Positions 1 to 14,717 of a stretch of DNA of 15,433 bases are shown here, piece after piece. The notes beneath the pieces were generated by a model. The model made no database searches, was not told the DNA's origin, and worked only from the letters and a program-made list of their open reading frames with translations. How positions within the stretch are numbered: position 1 is the first letter of the stretch; the number at the start of each line of letters is the position of its first letter. The stretch is from the IMG/VR virus record IMGVR_UViG_3300014970_000025, one strand, 5' to 3'. The position numbers and the translations under genes are program-made. The DNA comes from a virus (Duplodnaviria > Heunggongvirae > Uroviricota > Caudoviricetes).

Positions 1-831
1 ACTCAGTAATATCCATTTTGCAATATCTATGAATTATTTGTGAGACGTATATTAATGAACATTGCAAGGGCTCACAAGCAGTAGTGTTGAGAAAACCATC
101 GGGGAAATGAGGCTAAGCCTTTGAATTTACAAGTACAAAAAAGATACTTTTCCTCATAATGTGAATTAATTTTATGTTTCGTTTGATGATTGGACCGGTC
201 TCGAAAACCGGAGTAGGGGCAACTCTACCGGGGGGGCAAATCCCCCTCTCTCCGCCACTTTATCAATGACTTATCTCCCGACTTCCCGCCTTGCTTTTCC
301 TAAACAGAACAATCGTAGAATATTCTTGAAGGGTTAGATCGTCACTGTTTTCTGTTCGATACTGTGACATTCAGCACTTGATTCGCTATGGATCTGACAG
401 GAAGGTTTCGAGCGAAAATCTGCAGTTATTCAGTCGTTTTCTTATCGGTCACCATTATTCTTTTAGACATTGATCCTACAAAGCTGCCGCAAAGTTGGTG
501 GTGGGAACTGAAGTTGCGTAGAGAAGGGGTCAATACCCGGAGGCAAACATGGGCTGGCAAAAGTGTAGCGGTATTAGGCGCAGCTATTTAGCCTAGTTAT
601 GTTTTATGAAAACTTGATATCATATAAGTGTCTTACTTATTGGCTGTAAATAAGGTTTTCTAAGGAATTGTTTCTTTAGTATCATTTGTAACTGTAACGG
701 AATTTATAATCCTTTGCTTTATTTTTACGGTATTTTTTATCACACCCTATTTTTTGTGTGGTTTTTTATACTGAAGTTTGGCAAAGTGAACTTTATATGC
801 ATATACTTCATCCTGGTTTCAGTTAAATTGG

Positions 832-1584
832 GTGGATGATATGGCAACTACATGTTCAGTTATATTGATTTTGGAGTCCTTTGATGTTTATTTCGGAAAA
901 GAGAGAGTGTTTCTGGATAGAGGTTTATCTGTACTTGTCGACTCTAGCTATAGAGATTTTTTCCTGACATATCCTGAAAGAGTGATAGTGGCGGATTTTG
1001 GCGCTGAGTTTATTAGTCGCTATTTGAAAGCTAATAACTTAAGGGATATTTCTGATTGTAGGGAATATCCATCTTATTTAAAAATAAACTTTGCTGACTT
1101 CAGTTTAATTAAAGGATTAATTAGTTGGGCTAATCACTGTGCTGAATATATAGAAATTTTTGATGAGTCTATTGCTTTTACATGTCTCTCTGCATTTTCT
1201 TCTGAAAAACAATTTGGAGTATTTCTGTTTGGATGTTTGAAAAGCACAGGGGCTAAAGTTAAAACGATTATTCATACGGATTTATCTGCACCATGGCATC
1301 TTAAGGATATATCATCAAGATTATATCTCAGCGAAAGTTTACTAAAGAGGAAATTGAAAGAAGAGGGGGTATCATTCAGTAAGATCATACTTGATGAGAG
1401 GATGCAAATGGCTGAATATTTACTCAGCACTCGTTGTTATCCTGTTAGTAAAGTAGCTAAGGTCTGTGGTTATGCCAGTGTCTCATACTTTACTTATGTA
1501 TTTAGACGTTATTTTGGTGTTTCTCCAAGTCAATACTCTCAGAGGAGTTCAGAAAGTAAAATTCTTACTCACCAGGGAATCTGA
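832..1584 (+). CDS. AraC-family transcriptional regulator, AppY/EnvY/AdiY-like (250 aa)
   Basis: Intact 250-aa ORF. C-terminal double HTH region (WHLKDISSRLYLSESLLKRKLKEEGVSFSKI...VAKVCGYASVSYFTYVFRRYFGVSPSQY) matches the AraC/XylS signature and resembles, from memory, E. coli AppY ([22 protein letters not shown]...QKCGYNSTSYF). Preceded by a very AT-rich upstream region (600-830), typical of horizontally acquired AraC regulators. Start may be 832 or 841. Confidence 0.85.
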   Translation: MDDMATTCSVILILESFDVYFGKERVFLDRGLSVLVDSSYRDFFLTYPERVIVADFGAEFISRYLKANNLRDISDCREYPSYLKINFADFSLIKGLISWANHCAEYIEIFDESIAFTCLSAFSSEKQFGVFLFGCLKSTGAKVKTIIHTDLSAPWHLKDISSRLYLSESLLKRKLKEEGVSFSKIILDERMQMAEYLLSTRCYPVSKVAKVCGYASVSYFTYVFRRYFGVSPSQYSQRSSESKILTHQGI

Positions 1585-1625
1585 TCATTGTTCTTGCCCC
1601 CTTATTTCCAGACAGGGGGTGTATC

Positions 1626-2062
1626 TTAAGTTAACGTTACCCGCTGACGTCGATATTCTCGCGGAGAGCGATAACCCAACGCACTGTGCGGATGGTTTTC
1701 ATTGTAATGTTCGATCGCCACTGCAAGATTATGCAATGCCGTTCTTACATTCGGTTTCGGCATGAACGCGATGTAGTCTTCCTTCATCGTTTTCACGAAC
1801 CTTTCTGCAATTCCATTACTCTGAGGACTGCTGATTGCCGTTGTGCAGGGCTCCAGATTCAACTCTCTGGCGAACTGCCGTGTTTCATGCGCTCTATACG
1901 CTGAACCGTTATCTGTCAGCCACTGGATGGACTGTTCCGGTACTTTATCGCCAAAGCGTTTTTCTATCGCTCCTAACATGACATCCTGCACTGTCGCTTT
2001 ATCGTAACCTCCCGTGCTTGCGGCCCAGTCTATGGCTTCACGATCGCAACAGTCCAGGGCGA
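1626..2062 (-). pseudogene. IS3-family (IS2-like) transposase OrfB, C-terminal fragment (rve/DDE integrase core remnant)
   Basis: Minus-strand translation ...[51 protein letters not shown]...[14 protein letters not shown] matches the C-terminal end of IS3-family OrfB and resembles IS2 InsD as recalled. The frame is open only to an in-frame stop near 2063; the N-terminal part and OrfA are absent; no inverted repeats identified. Confidence 0.8.
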
Positions 2063-2338: not shown

Positions 2339-2384
2339 ATTCGTAATGCGAAGGTCGTAGGTTCGACTCCTATTATCGGCACCA
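2339..2384 (+). repeat. thrW: 3' 46 nt of tRNA-Thr(CGU) gene (anticodon loop to CCA): attachment-site core / direct repeat; not a complete tRNA
   Basis: ATTCGTAATGCGAAGGTCGTAGGTTCGACTCCTATTATCGGCACCA matches, from memory, the 3' part of E. coli thrW (T-arm GGTTCGACTCC, acceptor 3' strand, CCA). The 5' half (GCCGATATAGCTCAGTTGG...) is not present upstream, so this is a partial copy, as left at junctions of tRNA-integrated elements. Confidence 0.75.
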
Positions 2385-2989
2385 TCAAGAAAATCAATAA
2401 CTTAGCTTAACTTCTCTAAGAAATTGTATCTTCTGTTATCACTTACAAACGCCTATACGTTGTTATGGGCTTTGGTAGTGTAACACGTATGGGCGAGTAG
2501 TTCCCAGGCTCAACCTCGTAACAAGTTCCTTTGAAGCTGGAAGACGTGCCACCGTCTCTAAACCTTCTACCAAAACTCTTAGCAAGATGTTCCACACCTG
2601 GCGCGGTGTCCAATGATGCTACACGTCGTGAGACGTTGCAGAGGATAAACAGGCTAAATGATGGGAAGAGTTTTAAGTGCAATAGTGGATTAAAGCCCAC
2701 CTCTTCAAAACCTAACTTGATCGGGAAAGAATCAAGCTCTAGCACGGTTTCGTCCACCGGAGTACAACGGGTGCCTGATAAGAGAAGAACTGCTAAGACT
2801 TCATAGCTTTTGTGAAAAAGCCCTTTTTAGTGGATACGCCTACGGCGCTTATTTTTTGGTATAACCATCAAAGGCGCTTTATGGCTCCTATTGTCTTGAA
2901 AATGTATCTTTACTTGTATTGTGTTTTATGCGTAGTCTCCCTGTGTAGTATGTAACTTGTTAATTTTCATATGAATACAGAGGCAAACG

Positions 2990-3148
2990 ATGAAAAACAT
3001 TGCAGCTATCAAACGTAATAACCGCAAGATTCACGCTCGTAAGTTCCTGTCTACGCCAGAAGGAAAAGCCTGGCTAGAGCGTAAACAGAGAGAGAACGAA
3101 GAAAGAAAACTCCTTAGTGAGTTGAAATGGCTTAGAGAGGATTTCTGA
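2990..3148 (+). CDS. small basic hypothetical protein (52 aa; MKNIAAIKRNNRKIHARKFLSTPEGKAWLERKQRENEERKLLSELKWLREDF)
   Basis: ATG at 2990 preceded by GAGG about 7 nt upstream; below the 60-aa cutoff of the ORF track. Lys/Arg-rich and helical in character. No recognised family. Confidence 0.4.
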   Translation: MKNIAAIKRNNRKIHARKFLSTPEGKAWLERKQRENEERKLLSELKWLREDF

Positions 3149-3309
3149 AAATCTCCAGAACGCAACAGGGCGCATTCTAACGCTGTTTTCATTGCTTGGT
3201 ATAGGGATTATAGGTGATGTGTGTTTAATGCGTCTGTGAGCTTTTTTTGTGCCTTATTTTGCATTTTCATAATGCAGGAGAGAACACGGAAAGCCTTAAA
3301 ATTAATTAT

Positions 3310-3480
3310 TGGGGTATTTAAGGCTATTTTTAGGTGATTTAAGGGTATTAAACTTGATTTAATTGGTTAAAATATAAACAGATAGTTGTGTATCTTATTG
3401 GTTTATAAGGTTATTTTTAAATAAAGGTAAATAAAAAATAAATACCCATAAATAGCTATAAATACATCTAAATACCTATA
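3310..3480. repeat. iteron-like repeat arrays in AT-rich DNA (candidate origin or regulator-binding array)
   Basis: Three ~20-21-bp spaced units (G/T)ATTTAAGG(G/C)TAT at ~3314, 3335, 3355, with a related unit at ~3401; then TAAATA at 3428, 3439, 3449 and 3459, 3469 with exact 10-bp phasing for the last four (ATAAATACCC / ATAAATAGCT / ATAAATACAT / CTAAATACCT). Confidence 0.55.
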
Positions 3481-3491
3481 TCCCCTCCCTT

Positions 3492-3875
3492 ATGGCTAGA
3501 TTGCGAGAGGTGCTTAACGCGATTTTCAGCGCCCCCCGATCTGGAAAATCCAGAATCCCCAAATATCAGCAAGGAATTTTCTTGCGTAATCAACATCGTT
3601 TTTACCTATTAAATCATTACACAGAAAGCCTTTCTGTAATGTCTCTCACTAAACTTTCACTAAACACGAGAATGATCGGTTTTATGTCGGATCAGATGCT
3701 AGAAACAGCACCACGTCTCACAAGGGCTGTAAGCGATGAAACCAGTGTTTATGCGGGTGCAGGTCAAAATATAGGCCAAAATCCATTTAACATAATAAAC
3801 GTAATATGCACTAAGGAACACATAGAACGCCTTGAGTTGATGTATCAGGGGAAAAGTGGTGGATTTTTTACGTAG
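3492..3875 (+). CDS. hypothetical protein (127 aa), doubtful
   Basis: ORF present in track but no Shine-Dalgarno (ATG preceded by CCCCTCCCTT), composition unremarkable, no recognisable domain. May be non-coding. Confidence 0.25.
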   Translation: MARLREVLNAIFSAPRSGKSRIPKYQQGIFLRNQHRFYLLNHYTESLSVMSLTKLSLNTRMIGFMSDQMLETAPRLTRAVSDETSVYAGAGQNIGQNPFNIINVICTKEHIERLELMYQGKSGGFFT

Positions 3876-3894
3876 GAGCACGAGAGGGCTTCTA

Positions 3895-3922
3895 TTGACT
3901 TTTGTATGCTATGAAATATAAT
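3895..3922 (+). promoter_or_regulatory. near-consensus sigma-70 promoter (TTGACT-N16-TATAAT)
   Basis: TTGACT at 3895-3900 and TATAAT at 3917-3922, 16-nt spacer; directs rightward transcription into an ORF-poor region. Confidence 0.5.
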
Positions 3923-4356
3923 AGAAGGTTTTTATTTTTATGTTGATAGTGATTGCACATTAAAGATTGAAAGCAAATTTAAACATAAATTTTCAACACG
4001 TGAAAGAAACTTGTTCGACAAATAATAGATTGATTTTTAATCAACAATTTCTGATAGTGCTCTGTAAGCCGCATTACACAAGGCTTTGCGAAAGTGATGT
4101 AAAAGTGAAGAAAGCTAACATTGCTCTTTTAAGCCACTTTTCATTGAATTTTTAGTATGGAATTACATAGGGATTAATCATCAATTACATTGAATTTAAG
4201 CCTGTTTTAGATAGCAAGAAACACTTTTACTGATTATAAGAAGATCATTGCACAGATGTTATGTGATGGATGTAACGGTAGGTCACTGTGAACTATCCCC
4301 TACAGAATTTTGTTACCTATTAGATCAACTATCAAACTACAATTAAATTATCTTTT

Positions 4357-4576
4357 ATAAATTCTTTTATCTTTAAAGAATAATTATAGGGATACCCGTT
4401 GGATGTAACGATGGGTTACATCGGCAGATGACCGGGGGGGTCGGTCACGATGACCGGGGGGGGTCGGTCACGATGACTGACAATAAGATTACTTTAATAA
4501 TACTAATAATAAAACTAACATCTATAATACTAATAAATTCTTTTATCTTTTAAGAATAATTATAGGGATACCCGTT
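4357..4576. repeat. 44-bp direct repeat pair (43/44 identical) flanking a hairpin and tandem G-tract palindromes
   Basis: DR1 4357-4400 and DR2 4533-4576: ATAAATTCTTTTATCTTT(A/T)AAGAATAATTATAGGGATACCCGTT. Between them: hairpin GATGTAAC-gatgg-GTTACATC (4402-4422); tandem units GATGACCGGGGGGGTCGGTCAC (4427-4448) and GATGACCGGGGGGGGTCGGTCAC (4449-4471), each containing the palindrome TGACCG-N7-CGGTCA; partial third unit 4472-4480. Confidence 0.8.
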
Positions 4577-4581
4577 AGGGG

Positions 4582-4655
4582 AGTCTAACGACTATCCCTT
4601 AATCTATTGGCATTCGCCAGAACCTTGCACAAGTTAGAGTGTTAGTCGTTAGACT
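4582..4655. repeat. 12-bp perfect inverted repeat AGTCTAACGACT / AGTCGTTAGACT separated by 50 bp
   Basis: Arms at 4582-4593 and 4644-4655. The core CTAACG recurs at 4823-4830 (TCTAACGA) and in a bulged hairpin GCGTTACCCC-ttt-GGGGatgcTAACGC at ~4889-4914. Confidence 0.7.
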
Positions 4656-5183
4656 GCTTGTCATAACACATAGTTTTTGTTTGTTGATGTTAGTTAGTAG
4701 ATCTATGTTCGCTAATGCCGCTCACAACGAATATGTAATCTACTATGTGCAAATAGCCTACGGCTTGCGTAAGGCTAAATAGTCTTGCGCTGTGCGCAGA
4801 ACGATAATTAACTAACTACCATCTAACGATCATCAATCATCTAAAATAAATTTCTTGTGCAATGTTCTTGCGAATGCAATTAGGGTAGCGTTACCCCTTT
4901 GGGGATGCTAACGCATAACTATAGATCAACCATCAAACAGACAAAAAAGAAAAATATGGTTTAAAGATGTTAGGTAGTAGATGAGTTTCTACCGCTTAAA
5001 TCAAGCCGTAGGCGAGCAAAACAACCTCTACATAAGGGAATGTATTGTTTTTATCAAAATCTCGTCAGAATGCGTTTTAGAGCGTTTTAGCGGATAATGA
5101 AGAATAGCACCACACAGGAGAGCACGAATTGATAAGAAAAAATGTAAGCGCATGAAAAAGATCAGGTTTTTTATGAAAAGGTA

Positions 5184-5212
5184 TTGACAAATGTTTCTTT
5201 ATATGTAATAAT
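5184..5212 (+). promoter_or_regulatory. sigma-70-like promoter (TTGACA-N17-AATAAT with upstream TG)
   Basis: TTGACA 5184-5189, TGT then AATAAT 5207-5212; sits ~120 bp upstream of the first gene of a + strand gene cluster. Confidence 0.5.
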
Positions 5213-5330
5213 AGGTATTAAAGGGACAGGAAAATATTCTTATCCTCTAAGTAATTAAACCAATGCACCGCACTTTGAAGCCCAAGGCTTGCAAGGTGTC
5301 TATTTCTTTTAACTGAATAAGGAGTTTTTT

Positions 5331-5513
5331 ATGAAATGGTTTACATCGGAACGCGTCGTAGAGGCATTTAAAAAAGGTGAGCTAACACGACATCAAATAG
5401 TAATGAATCGTAATATGGCAAGGAGTCGAGGTTATCCAGAGCGTGAAAAATGCTTTGACGATGCACTAAAAATTATTGATGAACTGCGTAAGGCAGAGGC
5501 AGAGAAAGAATAA
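5331..5513 (+). CDS. small hypothetical protein (60 aa)
   Basis: Strong SD (AAGGAG, 6-nt spacing) before ATG 5331; product MKWFTSERVVEAFKKGELTRHQIVMNRNMARSRGY..., no family recognised. Confidence 0.55.
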   Translation: MKWFTSERVVEAFKKGELTRHQIVMNRNMARSRGYPEREKCFDDALKIIDELRKAEAEKE

Positions 5514-5534
5514 TAACAAGAGAAGGAGAAAACT

Positions 5535-5705
5535 ATGAGCGAAACTACAGAAAAGAAAAGACAACCACGCACTTGCTTTCATATTCCTGATGAAGTATTT
5601 CAGGTGTTATTTAAAGAAGCAAGAAGTAAACGTATCACTGTTACAGATTACATTCTTGATATGTTGAAAAGAGAGGCTGAAACACTCTCAAATAAAAGCA
5701 AGTGA
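5535..5705 (+). CDS. Arc-like ribbon-helix-helix (RHH) DNA-binding protein (56 aa)
   Basis: SD AGGAG before ATG 5535; below ORF-track cutoff. CFHIPDEVFQVLFKEARSKRITVTDYILDMLKRE aligns by eye with P22 Arc (FNLRWPREVLDLVRKVAEENGRSVNSEIYQRVMESF): beta-strand followed by two helices, RHH pattern. Confidence 0.65.
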   Translation: MSETTEKKRQPRTCFHIPDEVFQVLFKEARSKRITVTDYILDMLKREAETLSNKSK

Positions 5706-5759
5706 TTTTTATCACCATAGTAGCGCCGTAGAGCGTGATTACATACAGGAGATTTTTTA

Positions 5760-6386
5760 ATGATTAACCAACCAACTTTTACAAAACACTATGACACGTT
5801 CGATAACATCTCGAAGATTTACTCTGATAAATTGCCTCAAGGAAAAGATTTAGAGCTATTACACATTGTGCTTTATTTTCGATTTCTTAGTTATCAGGAG
5901 AACAATCTTAATTGTTACGAAAGTCACGAGACATTAGCTAAGATTTTTAAGGCTTCGGTATCAACGATTCAACGTAAGATTAAAGATCTTAAGGAGATGG
6001 GGTTATTAGATACATCCCCGCACTCTGATCCTAACATTACATCCCTTGTTTATACTGCTCTCCCTCTCACAGATGCACACATTACACCACCGGAAGACGT
6101 GAAATTCGCTGTAAACGTAGAACGGGCTGCACCTGAATATCAGGAAACATTAGAAGCGACACACTCTATTGAGCAGGAAACACAGGAATCAGCGTTCCCT
6201 GAGCGGCCCGAAATTTTTACTTGGCTTCTTTCCCTTGATAAGAAGAAACCACCACACGAAGAAACAGAAGATTTTGTAAAACGAGCATTAGATTCAAAGA
6301 ATATCTATCTTTGTGAAAATGATTTTGACTCTTTGATAATTGATCTCAAAAGTGAGAGCACAATATATGATTCACTACCCTTCTAA
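5760..6386 (+). CDS. winged-HTH DNA-binding protein, replication-initiator/organizer-like N-terminal domain (208 aa)
   Basis: SD AGGAG before ATG 5760. N-terminal LLHIVLYFRFLSYQENNLNCYESHETLAKIFKASVSTIQRKIKDLKEMGLLD follows the pattern of phage/plasmid Rep-type winged-helix domains; C-terminal half acidic and unassigned. Confidence 0.7.
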   Translation: MINQPTFTKHYDTFDNISKIYSDKLPQGKDLELLHIVLYFRFLSYQENNLNCYESHETLAKIFKASVSTIQRKIKDLKEMGLLDTSPHSDPNITSLVYTALPLTDAHITPPEDVKFAVNVERAAPEYQETLEATHSIEQETQESAFPERPEIFTWLLSLDKKKPPHEETEDFVKRALDSKNIYLCENDFDSLIIDLKSESTIYDSLPF

Positions 6387-6521
6387 GGAGAATAAATGAC
6401 TTATAACATCACAAACAATCAATAACAACAGATCGGGCAATACATATGGCAAATGCATTTATGGCGATATTCATCGTAACAATGGCATTCAGTTTTTATA
6501 ATCCACATAAAAAGAGGGAAA

Positions 6522-6905
6522 ATGGGAAGAAAGAAGAAGAACAACTTAAAACGTATTGAAAAAAACAGTAACTTCAATTCAACAAGACAACGTCCACCGA
6601 CACACACCAATAACGAAATTCCAGGGGAAGAGATAATATTTATTCTTGAAACAGAATCCCCTGAATTAAGCGATGAAGAATTAGAAATAATCCAGTCAAT
6701 GCCAGGCGTTTACTTTCGCCCAAGAACAAGAAAACAAACTATCATTTCTGATGGCACTCTGAAACGTTGGCAGCTTTTAGGGTTTAGCTCCTATCATCAT
6801 TTTTTGGGATTTAACGCTTTCAATAATTGTGTAGGTGGTGCATCGGAAGTCGATCTGATGGCTCATTTAGAAGATACATTAGCTTCTAACAAACGTTCTA
6901 ACTAA
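6522..6905 (+). CDS. hypothetical protein (127 aa), basic N-terminus and acidic middle
   Basis: SD GAGGG before ATG 6522; no family recognised. Confidence 0.5.
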   Translation: MGRKKKNNLKRIEKNSNFNSTRQRPPTHTNNEIPGEEIIFILETESPELSDEELEIIQSMPGVYFRPRTRKQTIISDGTLKRWQLLGFSSYHHFLGFNAFNNCVGGASEVDLMAHLEDTLASNKRSN

Positions 6906-6920
6906 TAAAATGATGGGCGT

Positions 6921-7166
6921 ATGTATAAGCGCCCAATGAAAATATTCAAAAAAGGAAAAATAATGATTGGCTATATTCAAGAAACACAATTATTTCAGAT
7001 GATCCTGTCTGATGCAAAAAACTATGCTGAGTTAATCCGACTGGCAAAAGAAACAGAAGACTACGAAGCATTAGAGCGTTATCGTGATGAAGTGCTGACG
7101 CTCAAGACACCTTTTAACATCGTATTGAATATGATTAATGATGCATTACAAGGAGAAGCCGCATAA
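6921..7166 (+). CDS. small hypothetical helical protein (81 aa; alternative start 6963 gives 67 aa)
   Basis: Internal ATG 6963 has the better SD (AAGGAAAAATAATG). Stop overlaps the next start (TAATG at 7164-7168), suggesting translational coupling. Confidence 0.45.
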   Translation: MYKRPMKIFKKGKIMIGYIQETQLFQMILSDAKNYAELIRLAKETEDYEALERYRDEVLTLKTPFNIVLNMINDALQGEAA

Positions 7167-7474
7167 TGGAAGAAGATATTAGCAATGCAATGGAACAACT
7201 TTTAGATCTGACTATCTCACTACAAACAAGAATAAATCAAGCCTATTCAGATTTATGTGATTACACGCTCTCTCAATGCGTTATTAGCTTAATGAAGGTG
7301 AATGTAAGCCTTGACGATTTTATCTCTCTGGTGAGCGATTTAGAGCTATCAGAGGACGATGCAAAACAGTGTAATCAAATCATCACAGACATCGCCACCA
7401 CGTTAAAGGTTGCAAGTGAAGAGATTCAGCAATTAGTAGATGATTTAGCAAAAAGTGCTATTTTCTCTAAATGA
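7166..7474 (+). CDS. acidic helical hypothetical protein (102 aa)
   Basis: Start overlaps the upstream stop; product rich in D/E/L/I; no family recognised. Confidence 0.55.
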   Translation: MEEDISNAMEQLLDLTISLQTRINQAYSDLCDYTLSQCVISLMKVNVSLDDFISLVSDLELSEDDAKQCNQIITDIATTLKVASEEIQQLVDDLAKSAIFSK

Positions 7475-7487
7475 TAATGAAAATTAT

Positions 7488-7516
7488 TTGCATTTATAAT
7501 GATTTTGTTATATAAT
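7488..7516 (+). promoter_or_regulatory. near-consensus sigma-70 promoter (TTGCAT-N17-TATAAT)
   Basis: TTGCAT 7488-7493, TATAAT 7511-7516, plus a second TATAAT at 7495-7500; followed by ~0.9 kb without any + strand ORF above ~25 codons. Confidence 0.5.
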
Positions 7517-8401
7517 AATTTTAGGGGTAGATAAAAAGATTTTAGTTGGTGTTAATCCTTCTACTGTCATAAATCCCTGCATATGGAAGGTGATAGCCTC
7601 AAAGGTTGAGTGGCATTAACCTCTAACAAATATTACCTTCCATCTCTCAAGAAGTTTTAGAATAATCATAACTCCCTCTTTGATTGTTGATTGTTTCTAC
7701 GTTGTGTTGATGAATGTTGTTAGGCATTGTGCTTAATTTTGATAAAAGCGGGTAGGTGTTATCTCCTTGCCCTTCCCGCTCTTATTTTTCATCTATGCTT
7801 ATCCTAAAGCTCCTTATTTTGTCCGAAAACATTAAAGAGCCTTACACTGATAGTTATATTTTATAACTATTTACTAACATCATTAAACTCTTATTTAATG
7901 ACGGAAGTTAGTAACAGAATAATCTATTAAGTTGTTGTCAAAAAACTATCATCTGCATAGCGTTAGCCGCAAGTAGAGAGAGTTTAGCTAAGAATGGTGC
8001 AATAAACTTTGGAAATATTGATAGCAAAACGGGTTTTATAGAATGCGGATCTATAAGCTTTGGTTGTAAAAACGATTTTCTGAAACGGTAGATTACTGTT
8101 GGTGTAGTTAATCCTATTAAAATTTGATCTGTGAGTAGATTAGAATTGGAATAGTGATTCCTTAAAGCCTTACTTTGTTGCATCCACAGCAAAAACAGGC
8201 AGCGGTTTAGCCCCCGCATCGAATAGCAGGATCGTAGATTCCAAAGGGTTGGCCCCTCCTAAGAGCCAATTTCTCCTGCGGTCCTGTTATTCACCCTTAA
8301 CATATCTCTAAGCGTATTTATAAAAGTATTCTTAGAGATAACGTTAAACCTCCTCAAAGTTGACTTATCACAATATGTATTTTGCCCGATACAAAATAAA
8401 T

Positions 8402-8452
8402 AAGCCCCTTGCTATTGTTGATTGAACCTCTTATAGCCTGGGGCTTTTTATT
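8402..8452 (+). terminator. stem-loop followed by T-run (possible intrinsic terminator or RNA 3' structure)
   Basis: AAGCCCC (8402-8408) pairs with GGGGCTT (8440-8446), followed by TTTTATT; loop is long (31 nt) so classification is tentative. Confidence 0.3.
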
Positions 8453-8480
8453 ACTCGGAACATAACGGAATCGTTATTTT

Positions 8481-8690
8481 ATGAAACAAGAAATTATCCT
8501 GAAATATGGCAATGAAAAGTTAACACTAACTGAGGATGTGTTGAATGCTACAGCCTACGCGCTTGGCATCACTCCTACAGAATTAAAGAAACAGTGTGAA
8601 CGTCTTTATAAGGCTGACAGCAATAAACCATCTCACCAAGATTTGATTAATGCTAAAGCTCAACAAATCAAACAATCTAAGGAAAAATAA
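8481..8690 (+). CDS. small hypothetical protein (69 aa), possible HTH-like segment
   Basis: Stop overlaps the start of the next gene (TAATG at 8688-8692). Segment ATAYALGITPTELKKQ is HTH-like. No family assigned. Confidence 0.5.
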   Translation: MKQEIILKYGNEKLTLTEDVLNATAYALGITPTELKKQCERLYKADSNKPSHQDLINAKAQQIKQSKEK

Positions 8691-9064
8691 TGGCTATTTT
8701 AAAATTAAGCGATGTTTTCCCACATCGTAAAAGCATCACTGACGTAGTGAGCTATGCAACCGACCCTTACGCGGCTGTAGAAAGCAAAAAATTTGCAGCA
8801 CTTGCACAAGATGTAACGTGCGGCGACCTCATTGATTCATCCGGCGCTAAATATGTTAGCGGCGCTGATGTTCTTGTCGTTGTGTCTGACTTCGTAACTG
8901 CTGATTCAAATAAAACAGTTAACGTGCTTCGTGCTAATGCCGGACTCGTTTGCATCAAAGCTGATGCCCTGAATGCCGAAGGCGCTGTAAAAGAAGCTGC
9001 TATTGCAGCTCTCGCTGCTAAAGGCTTCCAGCTTGAAGGCTTCCACTCTGTTTTCACATCTTAA
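8690..9064 (+). CDS. putative head decoration protein (lambda gpD/SHP-like position and size, 124 aa)
   Basis: SD AAGGA; lies immediately upstream of an E-like major capsid gene, as D does in lambdoid head modules; size typical; Ala/Val/Gly-rich. Assignment rests mainly on synteny and composition. Confidence 0.45.
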   Translation: MAILKLSDVFPHRKSITDVVSYATDPYAAVESKKFAALAQDVTCGDLIDSSGAKYVSGADVLVVVSDFVTADSNKTVNVLRANAGLVCIKADALNAEGAVKEAAIAALAAKGFQLEGFHSVFTS

Positions 9065-9080
9065 GAAGGAATAAATAATA

Positions 9081-10109
9081 ATGATTATCGGAAATGAAGT
9101 GGTTGATCTTGCTCCACTGTTTGAATTAAACGATACCCGTAACTATCTGCTGTCTACTCTGGATTTTACTGATCCTGTGCCTGTAGAAAGTCACAAAGTG
9201 GCTGTTTCCCAGCTTATCGAGAGCAATGAATCTCTGTTCAACCATCCTACAAGCCGTTTTAGCTCTGAGCATAACGTTACTAAACGTGAAAACGCGGAAG
9301 AGTGGCTGATTGAAATTCCTTATTTCCTGCGTGAAGACCTGATCACACCGCAGGACGTGCAAGGCAAACGAAAAGCCGGAAGCTCTATTGAAGAAACACT
9401 GCCGGATCTGTATGCGGAATATATCGCTAAACACAATGTTGCATTCCAGCGCACTAAAGAAAGCATCCTCGCGGCTTCTCTGTTCTCTGGCAAGACGCAT
9501 ACCCCGAAAACTGACGATGTTCTGATCGACTACAGCACTCTGTTCGGTGTGTCTCCAATGACTGCAACCGTTGACGCATCCAGCACCAACACAATGACTG
9601 TGTTCAAACAGTTTGACCAGATGCATACGGATATGATTGCTAAAGCACAAAGCCAGGCTGCAACCATTGAGCGTGTTGTTGTGTTCTGTAAGCCTGCGGC
9701 ATTCAACGCTATTCGTTACAGCGTTGGCATGGTTAATGCGTTCCAATATGCAAGCCCTGTAGACGATGCAAACGTGGTGTTTAATGTGCGCTCTCTGCTG
9801 CCTGGTGTAACTACTTTCACCATTCCAGGAACTAACATTGATCTGATCAAAGTGACTGATCCGCTGCTGCTGGCACATATGACCGCAGACGCTGTAGCTG
9901 TTCCTAAATTCGCTAAAGGTGCAGGTGTTTACCAATCTATTTATGGCGCTCCTTCCAGTTCCTTCGATCTGCTGTCTCAAGGCGCTAAAGAGTATTACAG
10001 CTATGCTTTCGAATCGAATCGCGGCGACGCAGTGCACGTAGTGACCGAGAATAGCTCGCTTGTGGTTAACCACGGTGTTGGCTTCTCTGTGCAGATCACA
10101 GTAGCGTAA
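9081..10109 (+). CDS. phage major capsid protein, lambda gpE-like family (342 aa)
   Basis: SD AAGGAA; length nearly identical to lambda gpE (341 aa); C-terminus ...VVNHGVGFSVQITVA resembles gpE ...DPDEFVSVQLA and internal ERVVVFCKPAAFNAIRYS resembles gpE NIIVFDPKGWALFRSF (by recall). Confidence 0.8.
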   Translation: MIIGNEVVDLAPLFELNDTRNYLLSTLDFTDPVPVESHKVAVSQLIESNESLFNHPTSRFSSEHNVTKRENAEEWLIEIPYFLREDLITPQDVQGKRKAGSSIEETLPDLYAEYIAKHNVAFQRTKESILAASLFSGKTHTPKTDDVLIDYSTLFGVSPMTATVDASSTNTMTVFKQFDQMHTDMIAKAQSQAATIERVVVFCKPAAFNAIRYSVGMVNAFQYASPVDDANVVFNVRSLLPGVTTFTIPGTNIDLIKVTDPLLLAHMTADAVAVPKFAKGAGVYQSIYGAPSSSFDLLSQGAKEYYSYAFESNRGDAVHVVTENSSLVVNHGVGFSVQITVA

Positions 10110-10273
10110 AAAGTGTTAAAGACGTTCCCCTACGTCTGGAAATAATCGGGGGGCAATAAGGGTAAGGAGATTAACTAACCTGTAGGCGCAAATACAGTAA
10201 CGAATCTCTTTGCCCTTTTTGTTTTTCTACTGTCTACAAATCCAAATAAAAATATATATGTGAGAGAAAACCA

Positions 10274-10471
10274 ATGAACACAGAAAATTCACAGGCATTA
10301 ATTCTTAAATCTGTAAAAGAACTGGCAGCTATTAGCGATGACTCAATAATCAATGTCAGTGCCTTATGCAGAATGCTTTCAATTGATGCAAATAATGTGC
10401 GGCAGCGTGTGTTTCAGACCGGGTGCAGCACTTTCGAAGCAATCCAATATTATTGTTCTAAAAAACAATAA
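10274..10471 (+). CDS. small hypothetical protein (65 aa)
   Basis: Weak SD; segment VSALCRMLSIDANNVRQR is HTH-like; uncertain. Confidence 0.35.
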   Translation: MNTENSQALILKSVKELAAISDDSIINVSALCRMLSIDANNVRQRVFQTGCSTFEAIQYYCSKKQ

Positions 10472-10505
10472 CAAACAACAATCATAATACAGGGAAACAA
10501 TCAGT

Positions 10506-12347
10506 ATGTTAGAACTAAACGTGGCACGCCTCTCGAACGTTGTCACCTTCGAAGTTAACCGACCATCATTAGAGAAAGCAAAAGCAGAAGTAGAAAAACT
10601 TCGTAAACAAATGGCGGCGGTGAAAGATATAGAATTGCGTGTTAAGACACATAAACAATCAACCGCTAAAGCAAAAAAAGACGTAGACGATATTGCTAAA
10701 AAGCAAGCACAGGCAGATAAAGCCAATGCTAAAGCACAATTAGCCGCTCAACGTGTAGTTGCAAGAGAACAAAAAGCCCTGGCAGCACGGAAAGAGAAGG
10801 CTGAATTAAAGCTTTTAGACGTTGGAGCAAGCATTAGCGCATTGCACCGTCTTTCTGTAGCGGAACAATATAAAGCTATTGCACAGGCTAGAGAAATTGC
10901 CCTCCAATATGAAAGAGGCGCTATTAGTCTGGCACGTATGAATAGCCAAATGAAACGCCTACAACAGCAACAACGTAAGATTAATGGCAATCGTAACGCT
11001 CACGCTAAAGCCTATGCACCTGTTAAGGGTAGCGGGAGTATTGGCGGCGGTGCTGCGGCTGTTATGCTGGGTGGCTTAGGCGCTGGCGCTGCATATATGG
11101 CTATGAGCAAAGCTTCTGAATTTGTTACTAACAGCTTTGCGAATGCTGAAACGCTGGGAGAATTGTATAGCCGTGCGAAGCTGGGCGGTGTAGACGTTAA
11201 CCAGATGAACAATATTGAGCAATGGGCGTATAAAAACGGCGTTGATTCAATGATGGGGGATCAAGGTAAACGTAAGTATCTCGATCAGATGAAAGATGTG
11301 CGTGAGCGTGCAACCAAAAGCTATGATGAGGCTGAATATGTAGTCGATAAAAAAACAGGCAAAGGTGAATGGAAGGGCGGCGATAGCGGCATCAACGTTC
11401 TCATGAACGAAGGATTCTTAACTAAGAAAGATTTGAAAGACTTTGCTGATAATCCTGCTGGCCTGGTTAGTAAAGCAGTTCAGGGAATGGTAGCTAAAGG
11501 CTATTCAGATGCACAAATCGGTAGTCGTCTTGAAGACTTGGGCGATGATTTGATGCTCACCTCTAAATACTGGACACGCTCCGCTAAAGAAGTGGAACAA
11601 TCAGCACGAGAACAACGAGAATCAGGGCGCTGGGTAACACAGGCACAACAGGAAAGCGTTATTAAATTCCGTGAACTGAATAATGCACTTAGTGGGCTTT
11701 CTGACTCACAAGGGATCGCCTTTGTTGATGGCTTTATGAAATCTCTTGATCCGAAAGTGATTGAAGAGTTTAAAAAGAGCATGGTTGCAATGCTGCCAAT
11801 GTTTACCAAATTAGGCGAGGCTATCGGCGGATTGGTTAACGCTGTAATGAAAGCAATCAACTGGCTGATGAAAAACGACGAGAAGACGGCAGCTATTCAG
11901 AAGAATTTAGGTGATGCACCGCCACTATCTAACGAAGGAATGAAGCAGAATCTTTCTAATCTCACTCCTGATCAATATAAAGGCGCTGGCACCGGAACAA
12001 CTAAGCCAGATAACAGCAATTCCCTGGTTAACACTATTAAAAGCTGGTTTATGCCAGAAGAAACGGTAGGTGGGGCGCAGGCTGTAAATCAATACAGTCT
12101 CGAAGGACAAAACATTGCAAATCTGAAACAGAGTGCAGCACAACAAGCTTTCAAGGCTCCTTCTTACACCTTTGCACCTGTTATTAACTTCAATCCAGAA
12201 TTACAAGTAAATGCAGAAGTGCCGCTAACTATCGAATCAGACACCGGACGATTGAGCGAATTTATCGACTTCAAATCAAAGGCATCCTCCGCTGAGTTTA
12301 GCAAGCTATTAACGCTGGGTGTTATGTCAGGCGGGTCAACCTATTAA
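10506..12347 (+). CDS. tape-measure-like protein: long Lys/Ala/Gln coiled-coil N-terminus, Gly-rich hydrophobic segment, large C-terminal region (613 aa)
   Basis: Residues ~20-170 are heptad-like charged helix (EKAKAEVEKLRKQ...KAQLAAQRVVAREQKALAARKEKAELK), followed by GSGSIGGGAAAVMLGGLGAGAAYMAMS (membrane-like). This architecture is typical of phage tail tape-measure or ejection proteins. No enzymatic motif seen. Confidence 0.5.
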   Translation: MLELNVARLSNVVTFEVNRPSLEKAKAEVEKLRKQMAAVKDIELRVKTHKQSTAKAKKDVDDIAKKQAQADKANAKAQLAAQRVVAREQKALAARKEKAELKLLDVGASISALHRLSVAEQYKAIAQAREIALQYERGAISLARMNSQMKRLQQQQRKINGNRNAHAKAYAPVKGSGSIGGGAAAVMLGGLGAGAAYMAMSKASEFVTNSFANAETLGELYSRAKLGGVDVNQMNNIEQWAYKNGVDSMMGDQGKRKYLDQMKDVRERATKSYDEAEYVVDKKTGKGEWKGGDSGINVLMNEGFLTKKDLKDFADNPAGLVSKAVQGMVAKGYSDAQIGSRLEDLGDDLMLTSKYWTRSAKEVEQSAREQRESGRWVTQAQQESVIKFRELNNALSGLSDSQGIAFVDGFMKSLDPKVIEEFKKSMVAMLPMFTKLGEAIGGLVNAVMKAINWLMKNDEKTAAIQKNLGDAPPLSNEGMKQNLSNLTPDQYKGAGTGTTKPDNSNSLVNTIKSWFMPEETVGGAQAVNQYSLEGQNIANLKQSAAQQAFKAPSYTFAPVINFNPELQVNAEVPLTIESDTGRLSEFIDFKSKASSAEFSKLLTLGVMSGGSTY

Positions 12348-12357
12348 TCATCACTGT

Positions 12358-12373
12358 GGGGCTGTTTAGCCCC
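12358..12373 (+). terminator. GC-rich hairpin GGGGCT-gttt-AGCCCC with weak U-tract
   Basis: Perfect 6-bp stem, 4-nt loop, 10 nt after the stop of the 613-aa gene; followed by CTTAAAT rather than a strong T-run. Confidence 0.35.
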
Positions 12374-12394
12374 CTTAAATAAGGATTACAAATT

Positions 12395-13072: not shown

Positions 13073-13153
13073 CCTTAAACGCCTATGAAACGCTCTGTAA
13101 CGATGTAATTATAAAAGAGGCTACCAATCTATGTTGAAGCCTCCTTATTACGT

Positions 13154-14488: not shown

Positions 14489-14528
14489 AGAAAATGATTA
14501 TTTTTCTATAAGATTCAATCAATTAGTA

Positions 14529-14591
14529 ATGGTCGTAGGTGATGGCATTAACACGAGATTAATCGAGTGTTTTACTCCTATTATCGCACCA
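14529..14591 (+). pseudogene. degenerate tRNA-Thr 3'-end copy (ptwF-like att remnant)
   Basis: GGTCGTAGGT (14531-14540) ... ACTCCTATTATCGCACCA (14574-14591) matches the thrW 3' end except for a ~33-bp insertion replacing the T-loop and one missing G; same orientation as the 2339-2384 copy. Confidence 0.6.
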
Positions 14592-14717
14592 TTAAAATCA
14601 AAGAGTTACCCCATATTTAAATACACCACGTTTCCTCCTGTGCCGCATTTGTGCCATTGTAACCTTGGCAATTCATCAAAATACTGTTCTGACATCAGGC
14701 AGTGCAGGTGCAGCTAT

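What the first reader, a model, noticed from the sequence alone, without database searches (positions are those of the whole stretch)
4582..4914. Recurring CTAACG-core inverted repeats
A perfect 12-bp inverted repeat pair (AGTCTAACGACT at 4582-4593, AGTCGTTAGACT at 4644-4655) is followed by TCTAACGA (4823-4830) and a bulged hairpin containing GCGTTA/TAACGC (4889-4914). Several copies of one core in alternating orientation over ~330 bp look like a multi-site binding region (operator, partition-like or recombination site) rather than chance.
Basis: seen in the sequence. Interest (0 to 1): 0.45.

Follow-up and report, generated by a model that had tools for sequence, protein, structure and literature searches.

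The report
Repeat modules beside island replication origin
The CTAACG repeats are real and non-random: they are end-pieces of duplicated, hairpin-forming ~70-bp modules in the 1.4-kb non-coding origin/control region of a small phage-like E. coli island, not a discrete operator, partition site or DNA-inversion switch, and their exact role is unproven.

Summary
The repeats exist as described, with two coordinates off by one. CTAACG occurs 5 times in 4560-4930 against 0.22 expected. CTAAC occurs 10 times against about 1.

The window is an E. coli island with a tRNA-Thr-matching left end. It carries an integrase, a capsid gene and an initiator-like HTH protein. The finding lies in an ORF-free stretch (about 3950-5330).

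That stretch holds:
- iterons (4427-4477) that match the initiator's N-terminal domain in 43 of 43 relatives;
- an AT-rich stretch;
- oppositely oriented DnaA-box-like TGTGYAAT sites;
- a "core" with only two alleles in 57 loci.

The CTAACG cores bound two copies in the window, one inverted, of a paralogous module (a third in relatives): TCTAACGA, CTTGTGCAAT, a small hairpin, then CGTTA.

The motif is enriched only in the window-type allele. Copy "a" sits in a variable hairpin loop. The GCGTTA/TAACGC hairpin keeps its pairing through compensatory changes, not its sequence.

Nothing supports inversion (0 of 353 genomes), known RNA families, or cos/oriT mimicry.

Best reading: DNA-level accessory signals of the island's replication origin (confidence 0.38). 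A structured plus-strand RNA is the main rival.

The parts
4582..4655 (-). Module M1, in inverted orientation. It is bounded by the perfect 12-bp pair AGTCTAACGACT (4582-4593, copy 'a') and AGTCGTTAGACT (4644-4655, copy 'b'). Inside it are TTGCACAAG (4625-4633, a DnaA-box-like site) and the small hairpin TGGC-ATTC-GCCA (4608-4619).
   Evidence: (I6, I1). The module alignment was made by eye from the sequences.
4565..4598 (.). Three-way hairpin junction: GGGAT / ATCCC encloses CCC-GTTA-GGG and AGTC-loop-GACT. Copy 'a' of the motif is the loop plus stem of the second hairpin. The loop varies among relatives (TAAC, CTT or TTC).
   Evidence: Two singleton relatives break the outer stem, and L010 lacks the whole junction.
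4633..4655 (+). Three tandem GTTAG units (GTTAGAGT GTTAGTC GTTAGACT). They are reduced to one unit in 5-6 of 20 unique relatives.
4697..4797 (.). Central core with three local hairpins: 4704-4711/4728-4735 (its loop holds CCGCTCACA), 4754-4777 (9 bp with a bulged A) and GCGC-TGT-GCGC (4787-4797). CCGCTCACAMCGAA and TTGCGCTGTGCGCAGAA are the only strings shared with the alternative (S) allele inside this central core; the flanks (about 4003-4180 and beyond about 4992) also align.
   Evidence: Variation falls in loops and the bulge, except that the outer stem 4697-4702/4738-4743 is broken in the L011 group.
4822..4893 (+). Module M3, in direct orientation: TCTAACGA (4822-4829, copy 'c'), CTTGTGCAAT (4854-4863), hairpin GTTC-TTGC-GAAT (4864-4875), a second TGCAAT (4875-4880), then GCGTTA (4888-4893).
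   Evidence: (D20, I1, I15)
4888..4914 (.). Bulged hairpin GCGTTA-CCCC-TTT-GGGG-ATGC-TAACGC (copies 'e' and 'd'). Four sequence variants all fold the same way. Two outer pairs and one inner pair change on both sides between segment types A and B.
4604..4883 (.). 30-nt inverted repeat (arms 4604-4633 and 4854-4883, 87% complementary). With an 8-nt indel it extends to about 50 nt per arm. These are the inverted copies M1 and M3.
   Evidence: I1. It drives the fold z-scores of -7.2 and -8.2. The 3' arm varies without compensation in the 5' arm.
4427..4477 (+). Two 22-23-bp iterons (GATGACCGGGGGGGTCGGTCAC), each holding the palindrome CGGTCA-CGA-TGACCG. This is the cognate array of the window's initiator-like protein.
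   Evidence: (D5, D11)
4480..4564 (.). AT-rich stretch with two 13-mers ATAATACTAATAA (4497-4509, 4524-4536) and the conserved 44-nt repeat D1 (4533-4576, also at 4357-4400). Candidate DNA-unwinding element.
   Evidence: (D1, D13)
4559..4587 (-). Candidate leftward sigma-70 promoter: -35 TAGACT (4587-4582, overlapping copy 'a'), 17 bp, -10 TATAAT (4564-4559). Kept in all six W-type representative loci scanned (9-10 of 12 matches) and absent from the S-type ones.
   Evidence: Consensus match only.
3953..4862 (.). DnaA-box-like sites TGTGNAA / TTNCACA: 3953, 4074, 4248 and 4625 on the minus strand; 4746 and 4856 on the plus strand. All left copies point one way and all right copies the other.
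   Evidence: Only 4746-4754 is within 1 mismatch of TTWTNCACA.
4267..4419 (.). Two GTAACG-type palindromes (4267-4286 and 4400-4419, ATGTAAC-GATGG-GTTACAT). These are non-cognate copies of the iteron family used by another initiator class.
   Evidence: (D6)
5184..5212 (+). Predicted promoter of the rightward operon (TTGACA-17-AATAAT with TG).
5760..6386 (+). 208-aa HTH_36 / replication-initiator-like protein. Its N-terminal domain tracks the iterons. Its acidic C-terminal domain tracks the core allele.

Best explanation
The CTAACG cores are conserved end subsites of paralogous ~55-75-bp modules. Each module reads TCTAACGA, 10-24 nt, CTTGTGCAA(T/G), a 4-bp hairpin with GCGAATG, then CGTTA(G/C). 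Together the modules form the window-type 'core' of a 1.4-kb non-coding replication-origin/control region of a small phage-like E. coli island whose left end matches tRNA-Thr (thrW-type).

Shown here:
- Iterons plus an AT-rich stretch lie immediately to the left, and the iterons pair with the N-terminal DNA-binding domain of the island's initiator-like protein.
- The core lies between that origin and the early promoter.
- One module is inverted relative to the others.
- The core allele travels with the initiator's C-terminal domain and the downstream genes.

Inferred: the modules act at the DNA level as accessory origin signals. They would be sites, partly hairpin-forming, presented on both strands. 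Host DnaA and a lineage-specific replication, priming or helicase-loading factor recruited by the initiator's C-terminal domain would assemble there. The nearest analogy is the inverted ssiA/ssiB hairpin signals beside the iterons and AT-rich region of IncQ oriV.
For: - The motif clustering is real.
- Origin context: tandem iterons, an AT-rich stretch and repeated 13-mers.
- The protein at 5760-6386 matches HTH_36 and phage replication-initiator PHROGs.
- The iteron family matches the N-domain cluster in 43 of 43 loci, across both core alleles.
- The core allele (W or S) co-segregates with the C-terminal domain and downstream genes, not with the iterons, N-domain, gp1 or gp2.
- The paralogous modules keep short subsites while their linkers and spacing diverge, and TGCAAT-N11-TGCAAT is kept between segment types A and B.
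- TGTGYAAT (7 of 9 matches to TTWTNCACA) occurs 4-9 times against 0.5 expected in both alleles, in opposite orientation left and right. This resembles the oppositely oriented DnaA-box arrays of oriC (PMC5716108, citing Rozgaja 2011).
- Hairpins keep pairing through compensatory changes, which ssDNA signals would require.
- No plus-strand promoter upstream of the core is shared across loci, so an RNA has no evident source.
- The core changes about 5-fold less than linked fourfold sites.
- Precedent: RSF1010 ssiA/ssiB are two 40-nt inverted, hairpin-forming repeats within oriV, with a 6-nt specific motif 5' of the hairpin (PMC8567376).
Against: - No binding or priming protein is identified. No primase or helicase family matched in the island ORFs scanned.
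- The S allele has mostly direct 17-nt repeats and no large inverted module pair, so the 'both strands' architecture is not general.
- Modules are lost or gained between short direct repeats in relatives. Copy 'b' is missing in 5-6 of 20 unique variants. L012 and L013 lack M3. L010 lacks the junction holding copy 'a'. Individual copies are therefore dispensable.
- Co-segregation with the lineage could be population structure. There are roughly 8-10 independent combinations.
- The DnaA-box likeness is only 7 of 9, with a consistent departure (AAT[G/T] instead of AWAA). No site was tested.
- The slower rate rests on non-independent comparisons to one reference.
Confidence: 0.38

Rival explanations
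1. Structured plus-strand RNA, either a long leader or an independent ncRNA of 350 nt or more. The complementary CUAAC/GUUAG segments would form alternative pairings. Segment 'b' (4637-4655) can pair with 'a' (4582-4599) or 'c' (4822-4838). This recalls seqB pairing with seqA/seqC in satellite P4's RNA-based immunity (P4 details are from my own knowledge). No protein repressor gene is evident in the island.
For: - 4555-4925 folds far better than shuffles (z = -7.2 plus strand, -8.2 minus strand).
- Two hairpins keep pairing between segment types A and B, with three double compensatory changes.
- Loop and bulge positions take most of the variation in the hairpins 4704-4735 and 4754-4777.
- G.U pairs occur only in the plus sense in 4704-4711/4728-4735 and in the L014 variant of 4888-4914.
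- The a/b/c complementarity is real (I6, I15, D20).
- The first operon protein has a very weak match to an 'RNA-binding regulator' model (E = 0.005, 17 bits against a cut-off of 100).
Against: - No Rfam family matches in either allele.
- No shared plus-strand promoter lies upstream, and no terminator lies in the region.
- Both strands fold equally well.
- Local z-scores are modest (-0.5 to -3.5).
- The 30-nt long-range helix varies in one arm without compensation, and the a-b helix is not conserved.
- Two singleton changes in 4565-4598 are wobble-compatible only on the minus strand.
- The motif occurs in both orientations, and short direct repeats with variable spacing are not explained by pairing.
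- The alifold test used a hand-registered alignment, which is biased.
Confidence: 0.25
2. Largely neutral by-product of duplication, inverted duplication and repeat-mediated deletion in a recombination-prone mosaic spacer. The motif copies are paralogous debris with no function of their own.
For: - The copies sit in longer repeats.
- Relatives differ by a 97-nt and a 145-nt module bounded by direct repeats (TCTAACGAT; CTTAAATMAGCC...GGCGAGCTAAAC), and by deletions between GCGCTGTGCGC copies.
- Individual copies are dispensable.
- Only two alleles exist, and members of each are recent relatives.
Against: - Core substitutions run at about 0.46%, against about 2.3% at linked fourfold sites.
- Short subsites are kept among paralogs whose linkers have diverged.
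- There are compensatory changes in two hairpins.
- The core allele never crosses lineages, although the modules on both sides do.
Confidence: 0.15
3. Packaging recognition site (cosB- or pac-like array of small-terminase binding sites) recognised by a helper phage or a lineage-specific island protein.
For: - Repeated short sites in alternating orientation over 200-300 bp resemble cosB R sites (my own knowledge).
- The island has lambda-E-type capsid and tail-like genes, and no terminase family matched in the ORFs scanned.
- The core allele travels with the structural-gene lineage.
Against: - No similarity to any of 50,697 phage records even at E = 10, whereas satellites normally copy the helper's site.
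- No TerS-like protein was found.
- The site sits next to the iterons and AT-rich stretch.
Confidence: 0.08
4. Invertible DNA switch or recombination site acted on by the small serine or tyrosine recombinases found upstream in relatives.
For: - A ~50-nt imperfect inverted repeat flanks 220-320 bp.
- A 183-aa serine recombinase or a 192-aa tyrosine recombinase lies upstream in many relatives.
Against: - 0 of 353 E. coli records hold the inverted configuration.
- No inversion was seen in 13 aligned loci.
- The recombinases are interchangeable cargo and are absent from the window and from L001 and L003.
Confidence: 0.02

Closest known systems
IncQ (RSF1010) oriV: RepC iterons, AT-rich region and the inverted ssiA/ssiB priming signals
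   Same: The order is the same: iterons, an AT-rich stretch, then inverted repeats that form hairpins. A short specific motif lies next to each hairpin. The signals lie on complementary strands (PMC8567376; window).
   Different: No RepB'-type primase or RepA helicase family matched in the island ORFs scanned. The modules are 55-75 nt and 170-270 bp apart rather than two adjacent 40-mers. A third, direct copy exists in relatives. There is no sequence similarity to plasmids. The alternative allele lacks the inverted pair.
Iteron origins of phage-inducible chromosomal islands and lambdoid phages, with initiator/origin specificity pairs (SaPI Rep-ori, lambda O-ori; from my own knowledge)
   Same: Tandem iterons next to an AT-rich stretch. 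The initiator has an N-terminal winged-helix domain that co-varies with the iterons (43 of 43 loci).
   Different: The origin lies about 1.3 kb upstream of the initiator gene. A two-allele core and two small genes lie between them. In lambda the origin is inside the gene and in SaPIs it is just downstream. Several loci carry extra non-cognate arrays.
E. coli oriC DnaA-oligomerisation region, with two oppositely oriented arrays of DnaA boxes (PMC5716108)
   Same: Multiple TGTGNAAT / ATTNCACA sites flank the origin in opposite orientation. The variable base is at the degenerate position 5 of the box.
   Different: The sites match only 7 of 9 positions (one matches 8 of 9). They share a consistent non-consensus end. 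DnaA binding is untested.
Satellite phage P4 immunity: CI RNA seqB pairing with seqA and seqC (from my own knowledge)
   Same: Three short segments in the order a, b, c, with b complementary to both a and c. It sits in an integrase-bearing E. coli island whose left end matches a tRNA gene, with no evident protein repressor.
   Different: No match to the C4/CI RNA family or any other Rfam model. The only strong promoter lies downstream of a, b and c. Segment a is not conserved. No match to alpha, sid, delta or psu families in the ORFs scanned.
Invertible promoter switches (fimS/FimB-FimE, hix/Hin; from my own knowledge)
   Same: Inverted repeats flank a few hundred bp upstream of an operon. Small recombinase genes lie nearby in some relatives.
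   Different: Only one orientation is seen in 353 genomes. The recombinase is absent from many carriers.

Membership tests
Iteron-type replication origin (region 4427-4564 plus flanks) | Tandem direct repeats (iterons) next to an AT-rich unwinding stretch | tested here: met
   Two 22-23-bp repeats at 4427-4477. An AT-rich stretch at 4480-4564 holds two 13-mers. Relatives carry 2-5 repeats of five families at the same place.
Iteron-type replication origin (region 4427-4564 plus flanks) | A cognate initiator whose DNA-binding domain co-varies with the iterons | tested here: met
   The N-terminal domain cluster predicts the iteron family in 43 of 43 loci, across both core alleles. The protein matches HTH_36 and replication-initiator PHROGs.
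Iteron-type replication origin (region 4427-4564 plus flanks) | Supports autonomous replication; the initiator binds the repeats | not testable with these tools
   Needs a replication assay and footprinting.
ssi-type single-strand priming signals (IncQ ssiA/ssiB-like) | Two equivalent hairpin-forming signals on complementary strands beside the origin | tested here: inconclusive
   M1 (4582-4655, inverted) and M3 (4822-4893) meet this. The S allele has no such pair, and relatives carry a third, direct copy.
ssi-type single-strand priming signals (IncQ ssiA/ssiB-like) | A dedicated primase or helicase encoded by the replicon | tested here: not met
   No primase or helicase family in the island ORFs scanned with Pfam, PHROGs and NCBIfam. 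Host or helper enzymes would be needed. The region is therefore not filed as a member, only as a working analogy.
DnaA boxes | 9-mer matching TTWTNCACA (consensus TTATNCACA, PMC5716108) | tested here: inconclusive
   One site is within 1 mismatch (4746-4754). The recurrent motif matches 7 of 9 positions. Binding was not tested.
Known structured RNA family (Rfam 15, including C4/CI antisense RNA) | Covariance-model match at or near the gathering score | tested here: not met
   No match in 3900-5400 or in the S allele at E up to 5-10 other than chance-level hits.
Structured RNA (unclassified) | Covariation supporting helices, and evidence of transcription | tested here: inconclusive
   Two hairpins show compensatory changes. 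Other helices are invariant or broken. The strand signal is contradictory. No shared promoter is predicted.
Invertible DNA switch | Both orientations present among genomes | tested here: not met
   0 of 353 records match the inverted configuration over at least 80% of the query.
cos/pac or oriT copy of a known phage or plasmid | Sequence similarity to the helper's or plasmid's site | tested here: not met
   No phage match at E up to 10. Plasmid hits are the same island only.
Partition centromere (parS/parC-like) | Adjacent ParA/ParB- or ParM/ParR-type genes | tested here: not met
   No such families among the island ORFs scanned, and the element is chromosomally integrated.

The most novel reading that the evidence does not exclude
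The two-allele 'core' (window about 4565-5000; about 900 nt in the other allele) is a previously undescribed large structured nucleic-acid element. It would be either a plus-strand regulatory RNA or an array of ssDNA priming or loading signals. It would be co-adapted with lineage-specific proteins of an uncharacterised capsid-encoding E. coli island. That island may be a satellite of large virulent myoviruses, since its capsid protein's nearest phage relatives are phi92/rV5-like at 24-26% identity.
Probability: 0.2. Interest if true: 0.65.

Novelty: new member of a known kind. Interest (0 to 1): 0.35.

Why it matters
The island family is found in about 13% of complete E. coli genomes (711 of 5426), and its genes are almost all annotated as hypothetical proteins.

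Its 1.4-kb non-coding region has a clear modular logic. Iterons pair with the initiator's N-terminal domain. A central core pairs with the C-terminal domain and the rest of the lineage. This gives a testable picture of how such islands swap replication specificity without breaking the origin.

If the core proves to be a priming or loading signal, or a regulatory RNA, it would explain how an island with no identifiable primase, helicase or repressor replicates and is controlled. It would also point to its helper.

For the narrow finding the message is more modest. The CTAACG repeats are genuine but are allele-specific pieces of larger modules. They are not a universal binding motif.

Tried and rejected
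- **Inversion.** A chimeric query with 4619-4868 inverted found 0 of 353 records covering at least 80%. No inversions appeared among 13 loci.
- **Known RNA.** Three Rfam scans, including the alternative allele, found nothing. There are no tRNA or tmRNA genes.
- **cos or oriT mimicry.** Blastn of the region against phages and plasmids gave only chance hits or the same island.
- **Coding.** No conserved small ORF exists. The 47-aa ORF at 4639-4782 is broken by 1- and 2-nt indels in relatives. The 62-aa ORF at 3967-4155 has frequent 1-nt indels and no codon-position bias.
- **Consensus host sites.** No IHF consensus, and only one DnaA box within 1 mismatch.
- **More distant relatives for covariation.** Scans of genomes, viral contigs and metagenomes returned only Escherichia-type sequences with two core alleles, so power is low.
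- **RNAalifold on the invariant core.** It gave different structures per strand and per sub-region, with equal energies.
- **T7-like promoter reading of AATTATAGGGAT.** About 14 of 23 positions match, by eye. No phage-type RNA polymerase family matched in the island ORFs scanned. Dropped.
- **Candidate binding proteins.** The lineage-specific small proteins (127 aa; 89-92 aa, winged-helix-like by eye) gave no Pfam, PDB or NCBIfam match.
- **Literature.** Searches found no description of this island or region.
Full report
**1. The observation**

The four elements exist. AGTCTAACGACT lies at 4582-4593, and its exact reverse complement AGTCGTTAGACT lies at 4644-4655. TCTAACGA lies at 4822-4829, one base left of the stated position. 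The bulged hairpin GCGTTA-CCCC-TTT-GGGG-ATGC-TAACGC lies at 4888-4914.

Over the whole window CTAACG is unremarkable: 8 copies against 5.35 expected. Five of the eight lie in 4573-4913. In 4560-4930 I counted 5 CTAACG against 0.22 expected, with 0 of 5000 dinucleotide shuffles reaching 5. I counted 10 CTAAC against 0.97 expected. Allowing for any k-mer, P = 0.027 for 6-mers and 0.005 for 5-mers.

The copies are not independent. They sit inside longer repeats, notably a 30-nt inverted repeat (4604-4633 / 4854-4883, 87%) and a 13-nt direct repeat (4584-4596 / 4822-4834).

**2. Where the finding lies**

The window is Escherichia coli DNA. From about 2339 to 14593 it matches a ~12-kb island. In strain RS571 that island sits directly after tRNA-Thr, downstream of proA, and ends with a tyrosine integrase next to yagU.

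The window's copy encodes:
- the integrase (13154-14488, minus strand);
- a lambda-E-type major capsid protein (9081-10109; Pfam Phage_cap_E, E = 9e-19);
- a tape-measure-like protein and a tail/baseplate-like protein;
- a 208-aa HTH_36 protein (5760-6386) that matches phage replication-initiator families.

The region around the finding is present in 711 of 5426 complete E. coli genomes at 74-91% identity, and no feature is annotated under it.

The finding lies in an ORF-free stretch. Small ORFs there are broken by indels in relatives. The 62-aa ORF at 3967-4155 shows frequent 1-nt indels and no codon-position bias. About 3950-5330 is therefore non-coding. The best sigma-70 match for the rightward operon is at 5184-5212, downstream of the finding.

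**3. Anatomy of the non-coding region**

Immediately left of the finding are two 22-23-bp tandem repeats (4427-4477). Next comes an AT-rich stretch with two 13-mers, then a 44-nt repeat that is nearly invariant in relatives.

I collected 57 related loci from E. coli genomes, viral contigs and metagenomes. Five unrelated repeat families occupy this position. They are GGTCAC palindromes with a G run, CCCACAGAA, CCYAGGAAATGA, GATACCCCTAT, and GTAACG-N5-GTTAC.

The family present is predicted by the cluster of the first ~105 residues of the HTH protein in 43 of 43 loci that have both parts. In 37 of these the cognate array is the only one. This is the signature of an iteron origin with its cognate initiator.

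The GTAACG palindromes at 4267-4286 and 4400-4419 of the window are non-cognate copies of one such family.

**4. The "core" that holds the finding**

Between the AT-rich stretch and the promoter lies a segment with only two alleles in all 57 loci. I call them W (window type) and S (L016 type). Inside this central core they share only CCGCTCACAMCGAA and TTGCGCTGTGCGCAGAA; the flanks (about 4003-4180 and beyond about 4992) also align.

The core allele co-segregates with the acidic C-terminal domain of the HTH protein and with the downstream genes. The iterons, the N-terminal domain and the two small first genes occur with either core. Four specificity classes are found in both lineages, always with iterons and N-domain matched, and never with the core carried across. 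This suggests co-adaptation, though only about 8-10 combinations are independent.

Within the W lineage the core differs from the window at about 0.46% of sites. The L011 group, at about 5%, is excluded from that figure. Linked fourfold-degenerate sites differ at about 2.3%. These comparisons are non-independent.

**5. What the CTAACG copies are**

Aligning the repeats by eye shows one paralogous module: TCTAACGA(T/C), 10-24 nt, CTTGTGCAA(T/G), a 4-bp hairpin overlapping GCGAATG(C), then (C/T)GTTA(G/C).
- M1 is inverted (4582-4655).
- M3 is direct (4822-4893). Its ends are TCTAACGA and GCGTTA.
- M2 is present only in relatives, as a 97-nt insert that begins with a second TCTAACGAT.

The window's single TCTAACGA at 4822 is thus the junction left by a deletion between two direct copies.

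Conservation of the motif itself is partial.
- Copy 'a' has TAAC in 6 of 20 unique W variants and CTT or TTC in the rest. It is the loop of an AGTC/GACT hairpin.
- Copy 'b' is missing in 5-6 of 20 variants.
- Copy 'c' is kept in most variants.
- GCGTTA/TAACGC is replaced in half of the loci by GTGCTA/TAGCAC.

In the S allele CTAACG is not enriched (1 against 0.44 expected). Other repeats are enriched there instead, namely GTGTAATT and TCTGTAG, as a 17-nt unit repeated three times at 51-54-nt spacing.

**6. Structure versus sequence**

The 371-nt region folds far better than shuffles on both strands (z = -7.2 and -8.2). This is driven by the long inverted repeat. The 3' arm of that repeat varies without compensation in the invariant 5' arm. 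I therefore read it as an inverted duplication, not a selected long-range helix.

Local hairpins behave differently.
- Hairpin 4888-4914 has four sequence variants with one architecture. Two outer pairs and one inner pair change on both sides between the two types of 3' segment.
- Hairpin 4864-4875 changes U-A to C-G and G.U to A-U.
- On a hand-registered alignment, RNAalifold gives -16.9 kcal/mol against -7.2 +/- 2.5 for column shuffles (z = -3.8). This test is biased towards the structure.
- In the invariant centre, the few changes fall in loops or a bulge of hairpins 4704-4735 and 4754-4777. However, the outer stem 4697-4702/4738-4743 is broken in one sub-lineage, and two singletons break 4565-4598.

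Strand signals conflict. G.U pairs favour the plus strand in two hairpins and the minus strand in one. Pairing matters for at least two hairpins, but the data do not distinguish RNA from single-stranded DNA.

Sequence-specific features also persist where pairing cannot explain them. TGCAAT-N11-TGCAAT is kept between the two 3' segment types, although the spacer diverges.

**7. A second motif**

TGTGYAAT (reverse complement ATTRCACA) occurs 4-9 times per locus against about 0.5 expected, in both alleles. All copies on the left are in one orientation and those on the right in the other. The one exception is a hairpin partner in S. In the window the sites are at 3953, 4074, 4248 and 4625 (minus strand) and at 4746 and 4856 (plus strand).

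The motif matches the DnaA-box consensus TTWTNCACA at 7 of 9 positions. The W/S difference (C or T) falls at the degenerate position. Only 4746-4754 is within one mismatch.

E. coli oriC likewise uses oppositely oriented arrays of DnaA boxes (PMC5716108). This is a lead, not a demonstration.

**8. Alternatives tested**

- Invertible switch: a query with 4619-4868 inverted was covered at 80% or more in 0 of 353 records. The small serine or tyrosine recombinases upstream in relatives are interchangeable cargo, absent from the window.
- Known RNA: no Rfam match in either allele.
- cos, pac or oriT copy: no similarity to 50,697 phage or 72,556 plasmid records apart from the island itself.
- Promoters: no plus-strand promoter upstream of the core is shared among loci. 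A leftward candidate is kept in all six W-type representative loci scanned but absent from the S-type ones. Its -10 is TATAAT (4564-4559) and its -35, TAGACT (4587-4582), overlaps copy 'a'.

**9. Most likely mechanism**

Shown:
- The finding lies in the replication-origin/control region of the island.
- Its motif copies are the ends of duplicated modules, one of them inverted.
- Some hairpins are under pairing constraint.
- The core allele is tied to the lineage, not to origin specificity.

Inferred, at 0.38: the modules are DNA-level accessory origin signals, where DnaA and/or a lineage-specific factor recruited through the initiator's C-terminal domain assembles. The inverted copies would present equivalent signals on the two strands. 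The closest precedent is RSF1010 oriV. There, two inverted 40-nt hairpin signals (ssiA and ssiB), each with a 6-nt specific motif 5' of the hairpin, lie beside the iterons and the AT-rich region (PMC8567376).

Against membership in that family: no primase or helicase family matched in the island ORFs scanned. The S allele lacks an inverted pair. Single modules are dispensable in relatives.

Rivals:
- a plus-strand structured RNA with alternative a/b/c pairings, P4-immunity-like (0.25);
- neutral duplication debris (0.15);
- a packaging site (0.08);
- an inversion site (0.02).

**10. Verdict**

The interpretation as a multi-site cis element is right in spirit. But the unit is a larger, allele-specific module in an iteron-origin region, and CTAACG is not itself a conserved recognition sequence.

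It is a new member of a known kind: accessory repeats and hairpins at a mobile-element origin. Interest is moderate (0.35). It would rise if the core proves to be a structured RNA or a priming-signal array of an uncharacterised, widespread E. coli island.

Noticed in passing
window 4427-4477 with 5760-6386; loci L001-L151: Five unrelated iteron families alternate at the same position. Each is perfectly matched to one cluster of the N-terminal domain of the HTH_36 initiator-like protein (43 of 43 loci). The two parts lie about 1.3 kb apart, with a two-allele core between them that does not travel with them.
   Followed up: yes
window 3953, 4074, 4248, 4625 (minus strand); 4746, 4856 (plus strand): DnaA-box-like motif TGTGYAAT, about 10-fold enriched in both core alleles. 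Its orientation is strictly opposite on the left and right sides of the origin and core.
   Followed up: partly
window 2339-14593: A ~12-kb island whose left end matches tRNA-Thr (thrW-type) in relatives. It has an integrase, gpD/gpE-like head genes, a tape-measure-like gene and a baseplate-like gene. No terminase, portal, primase or repressor family matched in the ORFs scanned. It is present in about 13% of complete E. coli genomes and is almost entirely annotated as hypothetical. Its capsid protein's nearest phage relatives are phi92/rV5-like myoviruses at 24-26% identity. It may be a satellite.
   Followed up: partly
L002, L004, L005, L007-L009 at about 577-1128 (minus strand); L012, L013 (minus strand); L001 8481-9032: The slot upstream of the non-coding region holds interchangeable cargo: a 183-aa serine recombinase, a 192-aa FimB-sized tyrosine recombinase, or a 183-aa hypothetical protein with a signal-like N-terminus. 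The window has none of these.
   Followed up: partly
window 7474-8481: A second ~1-kb stretch with no convincing ORF lies between the early genes and the head genes. It contains one more CGTTAG (7961-7966). It was not analysed.
   Followed up: no
window about 4821 and about 5000-5022, against L003, L008 and others: Relatives carry a 97-nt and a 145-nt extra module. Each is bounded by direct repeats (TCTAACGAT; CTTAAATMAGCC..GGCGAGCTAAAC). Other relatives have deletions between two GCGCTGTGCGC copies. This indicates repeat-mediated gain and loss of modules.
   Followed up: yes
window 5067-5095: The direct repeat GCGTTTTAGA occurs twice just upstream of the operon promoter, and three times in L027. 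It is a candidate operator.
   Followed up: no
window 5331-5513: The first operon protein (60 aa) has a very weak match to the NCBIfam 'RNA-binding regulator' model (E = 0.005, 17 bits against a cut-off of 100).
   Followed up: no
window 6386-6522, against L002, L030 and others: Many relatives have an 89-92-aa gene right after the initiator gene. By eye it looks winged-helix-like. The W and S versions are 24% identical. The window lacks it.
   Followed up: partly
window 203-254 (minus strand): A sub-threshold Rfam hit to a plastid 3'UTR family (31.8 bits against a gathering score of 68). The segment is a GC-rich double hairpin outside the island. It is probably a chance or REP-like element.
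   Followed up: no
window 832-2007: Left of the island lie an AraC-family regulator ORF and an IS3-family transposase fragment. The window's left flank therefore differs from the thrW-proximal flank seen in RS571.
   Followed up: no
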